From positions 145,581-209,580 of the forward strand of contig JAJYLD010000001.1 in the NCBI GenBank assembly GCA_021788015.1: 64,000 nucleotides of DNA, read 5' to 3'. Position 1 is the first letter of the stretch. Each line of letters opens with the position of its first letter. Below the pieces are notes generated by a model. The model saw nothing but the letters and a program-made list of their open reading frames with translations. It did not search any database and had not been told where the DNA came from. This DNA is from a bacterium (GTDB taxonomy: Bacteria > Patescibacteriota > Patescibacteriia > Patescibacteriales > JAKAJF01). The translations under genes were made by a program, and so were the position numbers. Positions 28,022 to 30,575 of this stretch are shown here, piece after piece.

Positions 28022-29038
28022 ATGAAAAAAATAGTTTTTCAAAAAAATTACACAAGAGATACGAGCTTGGTTGTCCAAAAGCTATGGTTCAAGGCGCATG
28101 ACAAAGCCATAAATGATTTTTTAAAAAGCAAAAAAGAAATTTTCGGCATCGATCACTTAAATAACGGCTCAATTGAGATTTGGGAAAATGCCGATTTATT
28201 AAAAAAACTAAAATCGATTTTGGTTAAAAAATCTTTTCAATCTAAAAATAAAATTTTTTCAATATTAAACAGGACAAAAATTGAAATGAAAGAATTTGAA
28301 AAACTTTGGAAAAGAAAATATTTATCCGATAGGAACGAGCTGGTTGCTTTTATAAATAAAGCCGAGAAAATGATGTATGCCAATTTACTTTATTCATATC
28401 TTTGTCTTGAGAAAGGCGCGGAAAAGGAAATTAAAAATTTGGCCGGCGAGCTTCGGGCCGCAGATCATTTTTTTGCGCATAGCGATAATCTTATAAGAAA
28501 TAGCATCAAAAAAATTTTTCCGTCCGCGAAAGATTTTGAAAATTGCATTACCATAAACGAAATAAAAAACAATAAAATTCCATCGGCGGAAATTTTAAAA
28601 AAACGTTTATCTTCTTTTTTTCAGGATTCGGGAAAAGAAAAATTTTTAGGAGATTTGCGAACATTTCAAGCTAAACATCCGGAATATATTTTTATAAACG
28701 GCGATTCAAAAAACTCGAGGATTATAAAAGGCCAAATCGCCAACAGAGGAAAAATTACGGGAAGAGTTAAGATTGTCAGGCGCAACAATGACATGCTTAA
28801 AATTAAAAAAGGAGATATAGTGGTTTCTCCGATGACTACTCCGGCAATAGTGTCGGGTTTAAAAAAAGCTTCCGGAATTGTGACTGACGAAGGCGGAATG
28901 CTTTGTCATGCGGCTGTGATTTCACGCGAATTAAATATTCCATGCGTCATCGGAACAAAGATTGCGACGAAAGTTTTAAAGGACGGCGATTTGGTTGAAG
29001 TAGACGCGAATAAAGGGGTAATAAAAATTCTCAATTAA
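28022..29038 (+). CDS. S3: short (338 aa) N-domain plus PEP-utilizer swivel domain
   Basis: [10 protein letters not shown]...[75 protein letters not shown]. Confidence 0.85.
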   Translation: [338 protein letters not shown]

Positions 29039-29073
29039 TTTTTTTCTGGATTCCCGCCTGCGCGGGAATGACA
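29039..29073. repeat. GAATGACA-family intercistronic hairpin
   Basis: TTTTTTTCTGGATTCCCGCCTGCGCGGGAATGACA, with stem ATTCCCGC/GCGGGAAT. Ends 5 nt before the next ATG. Confidence 0.8.
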
Positions 29074-29078
29074 AAGAT

Positions 29079-30575
29079 ATGAAACAAAAAAATCCAAAAT
29101 ATTTAAATGATAATGATCCATGGATTCTGGCGGAAGATATACCGGATATAGATTTTCAGTTTGCGCAAATCTGGCTTTCCTCATTTGCCAATGACCTTAG
29201 CCGTTCGTGCGGAAAAAATTATAAAAAAATTGTTTGTGTTTTTAACGGCTTAAATCTCAAGTTTTATTATGGAGATAAGGATTCCGATGATTTTGCAAAC
29301 CATTTATTAAATAAAATCGTAAAAACTCCCGCCTTCGGAAATAAAATTAATAAGAATATAAGAATTTTTTCCGATAAGCTTAAAAAAAATTCCGAGGAAA
29401 TTACGGGGAAAGCTTTGGTAAAAATGAGTAATGGAGAATTGATTTCTTTTTATAATAAGCTAGATAAATTGCATACGGAATTATATATCTGGGGATGGTT
29501 GCCGAATGCCGCAGATATGTTCCATGTAAACTTTACAAATTATTTAAAAAATTCGCTTGCGAAAAAACTTCCGGAAGAAGAGTTGAATAAAGCCTTGGTT
29601 CTGCTTTCAAATAGCGAAGAAAAAAGCGTTTTTAATCTTGAGCACGAATCTTTTCTGAAAATTATTTCTTTAAAACAAAATGGCAAAAGTCAAAAAGAAA
29701 TCGATAAAGCCATTTCTAAACATCTCAAGCGCTATTTTCACCTTAAGCATTTATGGATAGGGAAGGACGGAGTTTATGATTATGATTATTACGTTAGCGA
29801 AATAAAAAAATTCATTAAATCAAAAGAAAATGCGGGGAAATTATTGAAAAAAGAAAATACGATTTTTAAGGATGCTTTGCGCGAAAAGAACGCATTGATT
29901 AAGAAACTAAAACTGACAAAAAAGGAAATAGAAATTTTTGATGTTTATGCCGAATTCGCCGTAACCAAGGCTTATCGAAGAGATGCGCAACTCTTTTGGG
30001 CCTACAAAATGGACTTTGTTTTTCAAGAGCTTTCGAGGCGTTTAAATTTGTCCATAATTGAAACGCGATTTATGTTCCCGAATGAAATTGCGGATTCATT
30101 GCGTAATGGAGTAAAAAAGAAATTGAGAGAGGAAATAAAAAAGAGAACAAAACATTGTGTTTACTATGTTGAAAAAGGAATCGATAAAATGCTTTATAAT
30201 AAAGAAGCGAAAGAATTTGAGAAAAAATTGGAAACAAAGCAGGATAATGATATAAAAGAATTTTCTGGCCAGACCGCGTGCCTGGGCGAAGCGAAAGGAT
30301 ATGTAAGAGTTATAAACTCCGTAACGGAAATCAAAAAAATGGAAAAGGGAGATATTCTTGTCAGTATCGCCACCAATCCGGATATTGTGCCGGCTATGAA
30401 GAAAGCGGCCGCGATTATAACCGAGCAGGGCGGAATCACTTCGCACGCCGCGATTGTTTCACGCGAATTAAATATTCCATGTGTCATCGGAACAAAGATT
30501 GCGACGAAGGTTTTAAAGGACGGCGATTTGGTCGAGGTTGACGCAAATAAGGGAGTTATAAAAATTCTTAATTAA
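29079..30575 (+). CDS. S4: divergent N-domain plus PEP-utilizer swivel domain
   Basis: [10 protein letters not shown]...[75 protein letters not shown]. N-domain landmark [12 protein letters not shown]. Confidence 0.85.
   Translation: [498 protein letters not shown]

What the first reader, a model, noticed from the sequence alone, without database searches (positions are those of the whole stretch)
28920..30575. Constant C-terminal tail kept identical at protein level while the N-domains diverge
The last 119 nt of S3 (28920-29038) and S4 (30457-30575) differ at about 10 positions. All differences appear synonymous: both encode [38 protein letters not shown].
S2 and S8 carry almost the same tail ([11 protein letters not shown][DN]GDLVEVDA[EN]KGV[IV]KI[IL]). 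Upstream of the swivel domain the same genes share no obvious nucleotide similarity.
The pattern argues for very strong purifying selection, or repeated gene conversion limited to the 3' module. Either would be expected if the tail is a shared docking surface, for example for the single ATP-grasp partner.
Basis: seen in the sequence. Interest (0 to 1): 0.55.

Follow-up and report, generated by a model that had tools for sequence, protein, structure and literature searches.

The report
Gene conversion keeps dikinase tails identical
Two neighbouring genes of a nine-member enzyme family in an uncultured ultra-small bacterium end in the same 38 amino acids, because that stretch is strongly conserved across the whole family and, in this pair, a piece of DNA was also copied from one gene into the other; this is a real but fairly ordinary evolutionary process.

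Summary
The last 119 nt of S3 (28920-29038) and S4 (30457-30575) differ at 10 sites. All 10 are third codon positions, and both tails encode the same 38 residues.

Two processes explain it.
1. Purifying selection across the family. More than 100 S3-type and more than 100 S4-type orthologues from other Patescibacteria share almost the same tail consensus ([23 protein letters not shown], 90-99 % per column). The near-identical tails of S2 and S8 are saturated at silent sites, so selection alone accounts for them.
2. Short-tract gene conversion between S3 and S4. In a silent-site scan of all 36 paralogue pairs over whole genes, only this tract is significant (22 of 24 identical codons; global P < 1/2000; dS 0.19-0.55, against more than 1.1 or saturated in other pairs). 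S3's tail is closer to S4's (10 nt) than to its own orthologue's (33 nt).

The same tail-limited tracts occur in 8 further metagenomic arrays out of 35 loci tested.

The genes encode rifampin-phosphotransferase-like "substrate-binding + swivel" subunits of a two-component dikinase. The window has one ATP-grasp gene.

The proposed "shared docking surface" remains untested. Fused single-chain relatives carry the same consensus, and tails are no more alike in protein sequence within a genome than between genomes.

Misassembly is excluded.

The parts
28022..29038 (+). S3: 338-aa short-form subunit (about 230-aa N-domain plus C-terminal phospho-His swivel domain; catalytic His296 at 28907-28909).
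   Evidence: PF00391 E = 1e-25. More than 100 orthologues of about 340 aa in Patescibacteria, so it is not a truncated pseudogene. Motif TDEGGMLCH.
29079..30575 (+). S4: 498-aa subunit (RIF-binding-domain-like N-domain plus swivel domain; catalytic His456 at 30444-30446).
   Evidence: PF00391 E = 1.4e-26. AF2 model pLDDT 92. Foldseek top hits are RPH-Lm 5FBT/5FBU/5HV1, E = 6e-14, TMq 0.52-0.54. Orthogroup at 45-65 % identity.
28920..29052 (+). S3 copy of the homogenised tract: tail codons SRELN...KILN, the stop codon and 14 nt of 3' flank.
   Evidence: Ungapped alignment with 30457-30589 shows 11 differences in 133 nt. Identity collapses on both sides.
30457..30589 (+). S4 copy of the homogenised tract.
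28920..28995 (+). Core conversion tract in S3 (matching S4 30457-30532): 76 nt with 2 differences, dS 0.19.
   Evidence: The silent-site scan statistic picks out exactly this segment (22 of 24 degenerate codons identical, LLR 16.7, global P < 1/2000). dS.
28994..29020 (+). Patch VEVDANKGV in S3. It holds 7 of the 10 S3/S4 differences and matches S8 (37770-37796) at 25/27 nt. This may be a second short conversion from S8; the evidence is only suggestive.
   Evidence: P(at least 7 of 9 identical codons) = 0.03 uncorrected, which is not significant after correction (ranks S3-S8 fifth, LLR 5.9).
29036..29073 (+). 38-nt element starting at the S3 stop codon, with a hairpin ATTCCCGC-CTGC-GCGGGAAT. 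It is identical to 40237-40274 after S9.
   Evidence: (family D4). An independent Logan contig ends inside it, at 29065.
40237..40274 (+). Second exact copy of the 38-nt hairpin element, starting at the S9 stop codon.
24521..26056 (+). S1: swivel-carrying paralogue (511 aa).
   Evidence: PF00391. Silent sites of its tail are at saturation against all other paralogues.
26577..28016 (+). S2: swivel-carrying paralogue (479 aa). Its tail is 32-33 of 39 residues identical to S3/S4, with silent sites saturated.
30637..32169 (+). S5: swivel-carrying paralogue (510 aa).
32171..33649 (+). S6: swivel-carrying paralogue (492 aa).
34255..34572 (+). S7: stand-alone 105-aa swivel domain with a divergent post-His motif (SHLAKAARE).
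35414..36361 (+). The only ATP-grasp (PPDK_N) gene in the window; presumed common phosphoryl donor subunit.
   Evidence: PF01326 E = 2.8e-98. NCBIfam RPH and PEP-synthase N-terminal regions. It is the single tblastn hit in 64 kb.
36384..37829 (+). S8: swivel-carrying paralogue (481 aa). Its tail is 33-34 of 39 residues identical to S3/S4, with silent sites saturated overall.
38815..40239 (+). S9: swivel-carrying paralogue (474 aa).

Best explanation
S1-S9 are paralogous [quoted passage not shown] subunits of a two-component, rifampin-phosphotransferase-like dikinase. The window encodes one ATP-grasp subunit for them.

Two superimposed processes make the S3 and S4 tails identical.

1. Purifying selection across the family. 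The C-terminal half of the swivel domain runs from the helix that begins at the catalytic His through the final beta-hairpin. It is under very strong selection in every orthogroup and every genome. All paralogues therefore sit near one consensus, HAAIV[AS]REL..PC[VI][23 protein letters not shown]. This alone explains the S2 and S8 tails.

2. Short-tract gene conversion. About 75-135 nt of DNA was copied non-reciprocally between the adjacent genes S3 and S4. This happened long after the two orthogroups diverged. It erased the remaining amino-acid differences, including those at the normally variable last six residues. Only synonymous changes have accumulated since. A cluster of seven silent differences probably marks a later small patch copied from S8.

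Inferred, not shown: conversion tracts persist only in the tail for two reasons. The tail is the only part of these genes similar enough to pair, and copying there changes almost no amino acids, so it is nearly neutral. Copying within the N-domains would destroy substrate specificity.
For: Shown
- 10 of 10 differences are synonymous.
- 28 of 38 codons are identical against 15.4 expected (z = 4.4). Every other pair and region lies much closer to the codon-usage expectation (next-highest z = 3.4).
- In a whole-gene silent-site scan over 36 pairs, only S3-S4 is significant (LLR 16.7; the null maximum in 2000 simulations was 14.5; the next pair has P = 0.2).
- dN = 0 and dS = 0.55 for the tail (0.19 in the core). 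Other pairs have dS above 1.1 or saturated.
- Identity drops abruptly at 28919 and 29053.
- S3's tail differs from the tail of its closest orthologue (L003; N-domain 56 % identical) by 33 nt and 10 aa. It differs from S4's (no N-domain BLASTP hit at E <= 1e-3; 42 of 214 aligned N-domain residues identical) by 10 nt and 0 aa.
- S3-type and S4-type are separate, ancient orthogroups with more than 100 members each. Their tail consensus is nearly the same, at 90-99 % per column.
- 0 of 10,608 cross-group tail pairs from different contigs are identical.

Recurrence
- Nine of 35 loci with at least two swivel genes carry tracts above a locus-wise 1 % threshold, where 0.35 would be expected by chance.
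- All 13 tracts lie between His-28 and His+40, in gene pairs that are only 31-45 % identical overall.
- Nucleotide alignments show roughly 65-80-nt blocks with only 1-5 mismatches in L004, L055 and L034.
- Control: between-genome pairs have mean z = -0.02 and within-genome pairs 0.65 (Mann-Whitney P = 1.6e-27).

Identity of the system
- PF00391 and PF01326 hits.
- Foldseek places S4 on RPH.
- The T-x-x-G-G-x-x-x-H motif is present in all nine genes.
- Natural ATP-grasp + S4-type fusions exist.
- A published precedent is the two-component dikinase HpeHI (PMC12167813).
Against: - Donor and recipient cannot be assigned, because no relative closer than 62-65 % identity was found.
- The distal 13 codons of the tail are saturated at silent sites yet identical in protein. 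A single conversion does not explain this. The S8-patch explanation is not statistically significant on its own (P = 0.03 uncorrected).
- In pairs that have not undergone conversion, the longest exact nucleotide matches are short. How recombination starts between such diverged sequences is therefore unexplained.
- The codon-usage null ignores site-specific codon preference, although the between-genome control suggests this effect is negligible.
Confidence: 0.82

Rival explanations
1. Purifying selection on the protein alone, with no DNA exchange. On this view S3 and S4 simply both sit at the family consensus.
For: The consensus tail is conserved at 90-99 % per column in both orthogroups. S2 and S8 reach 32-34 of 39 identical residues with saturated silent sites. 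The motif skeleton is shared with PEP synthase, RPH and pyruvate kinase domains.
Against: - The silent-site excess is specific to S3-S4.
- The normally variable last residues (VIKILN) and the stop position are identical.
- 0 of 10,608 cross-group pairs are identical.
- S3's tail is closer in nucleotide sequence to S4's than to its orthologue's.
Confidence: 0.07
2. Homogenisation is adaptive. Conversions become fixed because all spoke subunits must present an identical plug to the single ATP-grasp hub. It adds a functional claim to the best explanation rather than replacing it.
For: - The window has one ATP-grasp gene for nine swivel genes, and no related array shows more than one.
- In the RPH and HpeHI mechanism, the His-bearing face of the swivel domain must dock on the ATP-grasp domain (PMC4844700; PMC12167813).
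- The tail begins with the helix carrying the catalytic His.
- The two orthogroups differ at several consensus positions in the front half of the swivel domain, whereas from Gly+15 onward the tail consensus is identical in both.
Against: - Protein-level tail identity is no higher within genomes than between them (23.4 against 23.0 of 35 residues), so there is no sign of lineage-specific co-adaptation.
- Fused single-chain forms keep the same consensus.
- The pyruvate kinase C-terminal domain keeps the motif skeleton without any ATP-grasp partner.
- Most paralogue pairs show no conversion.
Confidence: 0.3
3. Assembly artefact. Reads from paralogous tails were collapsed or cross-assembled, so the tails only appear identical.
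For: The source is a metagenome-assembled genome. The region contains repeats, and an independent contig breaks at 29065.
Against: - The two tails differ at 10 sites, and the longest shared exact run is 26 nt, so they share no 31-mer.
- A Logan assembly of SRR13170411 is 100 % identical to window 25022-29065 and includes all the S3-specific variants.
- The S3 and S4 proteins are each recorded on two contigs.
- The same kind of tract occurs in eight other metagenome assemblies.
Confidence: 0.02
4. A functional element at the nucleotide level (an RNA structure, regulatory site or recombination site) lies inside the tail and constrains silent sites.
For: The tracts in different genomes cover the same roughly 80 nt. 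A hairpin repeat lies immediately 3' of S3 and S9.
Against: - Silent sites of the tail are not conserved between genomes (mean z = -0.02 over 5,866 pairs).
- They are not conserved between most paralogues in the same genome either.
- Rfam finds nothing in this region.
Confidence: 0.03
5. Recent duplication of a whole gene, followed by very fast divergence of everything except the tail.
For: S3 and S4 are adjacent and on the same strand.
Against: - S3-type (about 340 aa) and S4-type (about 500 aa) are distinct orthogroups found across Patescibacteria.
- Their N-domains gave no BLASTP hit to each other at E <= 1e-3, and only 42 of 214 aligned N-domain residues are identical.
- Each is 56-65 % identical to its orthologues in other genomes.
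Confidence: 0.02

Closest known systems
Two-component small-molecule dikinases HpeHI, CreHI and PpsAB (phenylphosphate synthase) (PMC12167813)
   Same: - The ATP-grasp subunit is separate from a subunit that carries a RIF-binding-domain-like substrate domain plus a C-terminal swivel domain.
- The conserved T/S-x-x-G-G-x-x-x-H motif is present.
- The genes lie in one locus.
   Different: - Here one ATP-grasp gene is accompanied by nine swivel-subunit paralogues, and by up to ten in related Patescibacteria arrays. The known systems have one of each.
- The N-domains are not detectably similar in sequence to the PRK08296-type models beyond the swivel region.
- Substrates are unknown.
- The organisms are genome-reduced Patescibacteria, not aromatic-compound degraders.
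Rifampin phosphotransferase RPH (PDB 5FBS, 5FBT, 5HV1; PMC4844700)
   Same: - S4 superposes on the RIF-binding and swivel domains of RPH (Foldseek E = 6e-14, TMq about 0.53).
- The ATP-grasp gene matches the RPH N-terminal region (NF041857, 284 bits).
- Natural fusions P0174 and P0182 reproduce the RPH domain order.
   Different: - The protein is split into two polypeptides.
- Sequence identity to RPH is only about 15 %.
- The swivel domain is closer in sequence to that of PEP synthase.
- There is no evidence that rifamycins are substrates.
Concerted evolution of bacterial paralogues by short-tract gene conversion (for example tufA/tufB in enterobacteria and rRNA operons; from my own knowledge, not tested here)
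   Same: - A bounded tract of high nucleotide identity sits in otherwise diverged paralogues.
- Silent sites are homogenised.
- The tract's genealogy conflicts with that of the rest of the gene.
   Different: - The tract is confined to about 80-135 nt of one sub-domain, in genes that are otherwise 31-45 % identical in protein.
- It recurs at the same place in many independent arrays.
- Whole-gene homogenisation is absent.
PEP synthase and pyruvate phosphate dikinase
   Same: Both have an ATP-grasp (PF01326) and a swivel (PF00391) domain. The swivel domain is up to about 60 % identical to that of an archaeal PEP synthase.
   Different: - There is no PEP/pyruvate-binding TIM-barrel domain.
- The swivel domain is C-terminal rather than central.
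- The protein is split into separate polypeptides.

Membership tests
Two-component RPH-like small-molecule dikinase (HpeHI / CreHI / PpsAB type) | Separate ATP-grasp (PPDK_N) component | tested here: met
   The protein from 35414-36361 hits PF01326 with E = 2.8e-98 over profile positions 2-311 of 328. It matches NF041857 RPH residues 4-313 at 284 bits. No swivel or substrate domain is fused to it.
Two-component RPH-like small-molecule dikinase (HpeHI / CreHI / PpsAB type) | Second component with a RIF-binding-domain-like fold followed by a C-terminal swivel domain | tested here: met
   The AF2 model of S4 has pLDDT 92 and pTM 0.90. The Foldseek top six hits are all RPH-Lm, with about 590 aligned columns and TMq 0.40-0.54. 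All other hits cover only the swivel domain. Only S4 was tested structurally. S1, S2, S5, S6 and S8 are homologous to it over their whole length.
Two-component RPH-like small-molecule dikinase (HpeHI / CreHI / PpsAB type) | Catalytic His in a T/S-x-x-G-G-x-x-x-H motif | tested here: met
   All nine genes carry T[DEN]xGG[IML][TL][CS]H. The motif definition is taken from PMC12167813.
Two-component RPH-like small-molecule dikinase (HpeHI / CreHI / PpsAB type) | The two components work together (genetic linkage or fusion) | tested here: met
   They lie in the same cluster. Eleven related arrays have exactly one ATP-grasp gene within the fetched flank. P0174 and P0182 are natural fusions of an ATP-grasp domain with an S4-type protein.
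Two-component RPH-like small-molecule dikinase (HpeHI / CreHI / PpsAB type) | ATP-dependent dikinase activity on a small-molecule acceptor | not testable with these tools
   Needs biochemistry. The substrates are unknown.
Two-component RPH-like small-molecule dikinase (HpeHI / CreHI / PpsAB type) | Sequence membership in the HpeH/CreH/PpsA clade (about 45 % pairwise identity among those proteins) | tested here: inconclusive
   NCBIfam PRK08296-type models match only the swivel region of S1-S9. No HpeH, CreH or PpsA sequence was available for direct comparison. These genes probably form a separate clade.
Bona fide PEP synthase / PPDK | PEP/pyruvate-binding TIM-barrel domain (PF02896), with the swivel domain in the centre of the protein | tested here: not met
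   No PF02896 hit in any S protein or in any other scanned ORF. The swivel domain is C-terminal. NCBIfam PEP-synthase scores are 106-133 bits against cut-offs of 598-740.
Ectopic gene conversion between paralogues | Bounded tract of high nucleotide identity within otherwise diverged genes | tested here: met
   Windows 28920-29052 and 30457-30589 are 92 % identical. Flanking 30-nt windows fall to 7-20 matches out of 30.
Ectopic gene conversion between paralogues | Silent-site identity above what amino-acid constraint plus codon usage predicts | tested here: met
   z = 4.4. Scan statistic global P < 1/2000. dS 0.19-0.55 against saturation in other pairs. The between-genome control is flat.
Ectopic gene conversion between paralogues | Genealogy of the tract conflicts with that of the rest of the gene | tested here: met
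   S3's tail differs from S4's by 10 nt and from its orthologue L3f's by 33 nt. The N-domain relationships are the reverse.
Ectopic gene conversion between paralogues | Identified donor and recipient | tested here: inconclusive
   Both tails match the shared consensus. The nearest relatives are only 62-65 % identical, so polarity cannot be inferred.

The most novel reading that the evidence does not exclude
Patescibacteria run a hub-and-spoke dikinase. One ATP-grasp subunit charges up to ten substrate-specific subunits through an interchangeable C-terminal plug. The uniformity of that plug is functionally required, and it is actively maintained by recurrent short-patch gene conversion. The constant 3' module would also serve as the recombination handle through which new spokes are born and lost. 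If so, the tail is a standardised protein-protein adaptor, and the arrays are a compact way for a reduced genome to phosphorylate many scavenged metabolites.
Probability: 0.25. Interest if true: 0.65.

Novelty: new variant of a known kind. Interest (0 to 1): 0.4.

Why it matters
The tail identity reflects known processes: purifying selection plus gene conversion.

It also draws attention to an apparently undescribed arrangement. Tandem arrays of up to ten RPH-like "substrate-binding + swivel" subunits share one ATP-grasp subunit, and they are widespread in Patescibacteria. I found no paper describing them in the searchable literature.

The conversion tracts give a clean natural example of recombination surviving only where paralogues are held to the same protein sequence. 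They mark the C-terminal half of the swivel domain as the invariant module of the system. That is the obvious region to test for ATP-grasp docking and to use in engineering chimeric dikinases.

For genome annotators, the result warns that these genes are neither PEP synthases nor rifampin-resistance genes. It also warns that the repeated tails and hairpins break short-read assemblies.

Tried and rejected
- The genome-contig scan with S4 returned only two distant loci (61-62 % identity), which are too far to time or polarise the conversion.
Assignment to Patescibacteria rests on the names of homologues.
- The idea that S3 is a truncated or chimeric pseudogene was rejected. It belongs to a conserved orthogroup of about 340 aa.
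- I first took the non-coding similarity after the stop codons as extra proof of conversion. It is confounded by a separate 38-nt hairpin repeat shared exactly by the S3 and S9 flanks, so I give it little weight.
- The S3-S8 patch is not significant after multiple testing.
- I looked for conversion tracts in the N-domains. None was found in any of the 35 loci.
- I tested for genome-specific co-evolution of tails at the protein level. There was no signal.
- The hairpin is not a canonical terminator on the + strand, because the T-run precedes it.
- Rfam has no family in the cluster.
- PMC4833264 (the RPH structure paper in PNAS) is not held in the library.
- Mapping tail residues onto an interface was not possible. 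The structure tool returns no coordinates and does not predict multimers.

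
Full report
**1. What is there**

Window 24.5-40.3 kb holds nine + strand genes whose products end in a PEP-utilizers mobile (phospho-histidine swivel) domain, PF00391:
- S1 24521-26056
- S2 26577-28016
- S3 28022-29038
- S4 29079-30575
- S5 30637-32169
- S6 32171-33649
- S7 34255-34572
- S8 36384-37829
- S9 38815-40239

One gene, 35414-36361, encodes a PPDK_N ATP-grasp protein. A tblastn search with the ATP-grasp protein finds no second copy in the 64 kb. The window is 39 % G+C. The closest homologues of S3 and S4 come from Moranbacteria, Falkowbacteria, Magasanikbacteria and other members of the Patescibacteria group.

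**2. The observation**

The 119-nt tails 28920-29038 and 30457-30575 differ at exactly 10 positions. All 10 are third codon positions. Both tails encode [38 protein letters not shown] followed by TAA. S2 and S8 carry almost the same peptide.

Four refinements apply.
- The similarity starts abruptly inside the swivel domain, four codons after the catalytic His (S3 His296, S4 His456). The 74 residues up to and just past the catalytic His are only 27/74 identical.
- The N-domains lack nucleotide similarity, but most are homologous as proteins. BLASTP gives 28-38 % identity over about 290-510 residues among the long paralogues. S3 and S9 align to the others mainly through the swivel domain.
- The similarity runs 14 nt past the stop codon, to 29052.
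- The differences are clustered, with two in the first 76 nt and seven in 28996-29020 (P = 0.0015).

**3. Selection or conversion?**

For every paralogue pair I counted, among columns with the same amino acid, how many also use the same codon. I compared that count with the expectation from the window's codon usage.
- The S3-S4 tail stands out, with 28 of 38 identical codons against 15.4 expected (z = 4.4).
- S2-S4 (15 against 13.1), S4-S8 (14 against 13.7) and nearly all other pairs and regions are close to expectation (next-highest z = 3.4). None was significant in the whole-gene scan.
- An unbiased scan statistic over whole genes and all 36 pairs picks one segment, the 24 degenerate codons directly after SRELN in S3-S4. 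There 22 codons are identical, LLR is 16.7, and none of 2000 simulated family-wide maxima reached that value. The next-best pair has P = 0.2.
- Nei-Gojobori estimates give dN = 0 and dS = 0.55 for the S3-S4 tail (0.19 for its first 25 codons). All other tail pairs have dS above 1.1 or too saturated to compute.

So the S2 and S8 resemblance is protein-level purifying selection only. S3-S4 additionally shares recent DNA ancestry.

**4. Comparative evidence**

- S3 is not a degraded copy. It belongs to an orthogroup of about 340 aa with more than 100 members. S4 belongs to a separate orthogroup of about 500 aa.
- The two orthogroups have almost the same tail consensus, at 90-99 % conservation per column: [40 protein letters not shown] and [40 protein letters not shown]. 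Most of the protein identity is therefore a family-wide property.
- Even so, among 10,608 S3-type x S4-type pairs from different contigs the mean tail identity is 0.74 and none is fully identical.
- S3's tail differs from that of its closest orthologue (L003; N-domain 56 % identical) by 33 nt and 10 aa. It differs from S4's by 10 nt and 0 aa. This conflict between tail and N-domain genealogies is the signature of gene conversion.

**5. Recurrence**

A metagenome scan seeded with an S3-family alignment returned 80 loci. Adding the loci already held and the window itself gives 86 records. Of these, 35 carry two to ten tandem swivel genes.
- The same scan statistic, with a locus-wise 1 % threshold, finds significant silent-site tracts in nine loci (0.35 expected by chance): L004, L031, L034, L050, L055, L071, L076, L081 and the window.
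- All 13 tracts lie between His-28 and His+40, and most lie between His+5 and His+40.
- The gene pairs involved are only 31-45 % identical overall. Eight of the 13 are adjacent genes, and they belong to various orthogroups.
- Nucleotide alignments show blocks of roughly 65-80 nt with only 1-5 mismatches over PC[VI][19 protein letters not shown].
- A control with 5,866 between-genome pairs of similar G+C gives mean z = -0.02, so the null is calibrated and there is no site-specific codon preference. Within-genome pairs give mean z = 0.65 (Mann-Whitney P = 1.6e-27).

Repeated conversion limited to the 3' module is therefore a general feature of these arrays.

**6. Fine structure in the window**

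In 28994-29020 (VEVDANKGV) S3 differs from S4 at seven silent sites but matches S8 (37770-37796) at 25/27 nt. This suggests a second small patch copied from S8. It would explain why the distal tail is identical in protein to S4's yet saturated at silent sites. On its own the patch is not significant (P = 0.03 uncorrected).

From its stop codon onward, the 3' flank of S3 is identical over 38 nt to the flank of S9. This is a hairpin element, TAATTTTTTTCTGGATTCCCGCCTGCGCGGGAATGACA. The non-coding similarity between S3 and S4 is therefore confounded by this element.

**7. Artefact?**

Misassembly is excluded for four reasons.
- The tails share no exact run longer than 26 nt.
- An independent Logan assembly of SRR13170411 is 100 % identical to window 25022-29065. 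It ends inside the 38-nt repeat, as a de Bruijn assembler would.
- Both proteins are recorded on two contigs.
- The pattern recurs in unrelated assemblies.

**8. What the genes are**

- An AlphaFold2 model of S4 (pLDDT 92, pTM 0.90) matches only rifampin phosphotransferase over its whole length (5FBT, 5FBU, 5HV1; E = 6e-14; TMq 0.52-0.54; about 590 columns). Every other PDB hit covers just the swivel domain.
- NCBIfam RPH and PRK06241 models extend into the N-domains of S5, S6, S8 and S9. The ATP-grasp protein matches the N-terminal 310 residues of RPH and PEP synthase.
- No PEP/pyruvate-binding domain is present.
- All nine genes keep the T-x-x-G-G-x-x-x-H motif.
- P0174 and P0182 are natural fusions of an ATP-grasp domain (60 % identical) with an S4-type protein (54 % identical), in the RPH domain order.

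The published precedent is the two-component dikinase subfamily HpeHI, CreHI and PpsAB. There an ATP-grasp subunit phosphorylates the swivel His of a second subunit, which then phosphorylates a phenolic substrate (PMC12167813; RPH mechanism in PMC4844700).

By inference, the single ATP-grasp protein here charges each of the nine S proteins on the conserved His. Each S protein then passes the phosphoryl group to its own, unknown, small-molecule substrate.

**9. The docking-surface idea**

In the model the tail consists of:
- the helix that starts at the catalytic His (456-464)
- a strand (468-470)
- a short helix (475-478)
- the terminal beta-hairpin (484-488 and 493-496)

The His-proximal helix must approach both the ATP-grasp site and the protein's own N-domain site. 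This follows from the mechanism and is an inference.

Three results argue that sharing one partner is not needed to explain the conservation.
- The fused single-chain relatives have the same consensus.
- The motif skeleton (SHAA..R.lgIP.vvG...AT..lkdG..v.VD...G.v) is present in PEP synthases, in RPH and in the pyruvate kinase C-terminal domain, which has no ATP-grasp partner.
- Tails are not more alike in protein sequence within a genome than between genomes (23.4 against 23.0 of 35 residues).

The idea is neither shown nor excluded. A multimer model or tail-swap experiments are needed.

**10. Why only the tail (inference)**

The tail is the only stretch where amino-acid constraint keeps paralogues similar enough in DNA to pair. 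Copying there is nearly neutral, because the proteins are already the same. Conversion in the N-domains would overwrite substrate specificity and be removed by selection. A retained tract there would have been detected as a run of identical residues and codons, and none was found.

**11. Verdict**

The functional rationale remains open. The process is ordinary. The underlying hub-and-spoke dikinase arrays of Patescibacteria appear undescribed in the searchable literature, and they are the more interesting object.

Noticed in passing
window 29036-29073 and 40237-40274 (degenerate copy about 30573-30627): An exact 38-nt repeat starts at the stop codons of S3 and S9: TAATTTTTTTCTGGATTCCCGCCTGCGCGGGAATGACA. 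It has an 8-bp GC-rich hairpin (MFE -14.4, centroid -13 kcal/mol; z = -2.7). The T-run precedes the hairpin, so it is not a canonical terminator on the + strand. It resembles small palindromic intergenic repeats, and one similar hairpin lies just upstream of the ATP-grasp gene in L055 (13063-13082). An independent assembly breaks inside it.
   Followed up: partly
window 34255-34572 (S7) and 33657-34262: S7 is a stand-alone 105-aa swivel domain with an altered post-His motif (SHLAKAARE instead of SHAAIV[AS]RE). Its start overlaps the end of a HAD-family hydrolase gene by 8 nt. It could be a free phospho-carrier or a partner of the phosphatase.
   Followed up: no
related loci L006, L047, L076, L079, L085, L004 and others: Tandem arrays of 4-10 swivel-subunit genes occur in many Patescibacteria metagenome contigs, with at most one ATP-grasp gene per array. 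Natural ATP-grasp + S4-type fusions also exist (P0174 of 819 aa and P0182 of 815 aa). I found no published description.
   Followed up: partly
window 62704-63402: The Rfam bacterial RNase P class A hit spans 699 nt for a 367-position model. The gene therefore carries one or more large insertions.
   Followed up: no
window 15940-16065: The Rfam tRNA hit (48 bits) is 126 nt long and ARAGORN does not call it. It may be an intron-containing or otherwise interrupted tRNA gene.
   Followed up: no
window 9765-11336 and 11575-13149: Two tandem paralogues of cofactor-independent phosphoglycerate mutase (iPGM_N plus Metalloenzyme domains).
   Followed up: no
window 37841-38773 and 26115-26564: A D-2-hydroxyacid dehydrogenase gene lies between S8 and S9. 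A 149-aa ORF with no Pfam match lies between S1 and S2. Both sit inside the dikinase array and may hint at substrates or accessory functions.
   Followed up: no
locus L004 (GCA_028716005.1) 6475-11059: In this Moranbacteria array, five of eight paralogues share the genome-specific variant VDADKG (VNADKG in one of the five), where the window mostly has VDANKG. Several adjacent pairs show raised silent-site identity (z = 2.5-4.3). This suggests stepwise spread of one tail variant along the array.
   Followed up: partly
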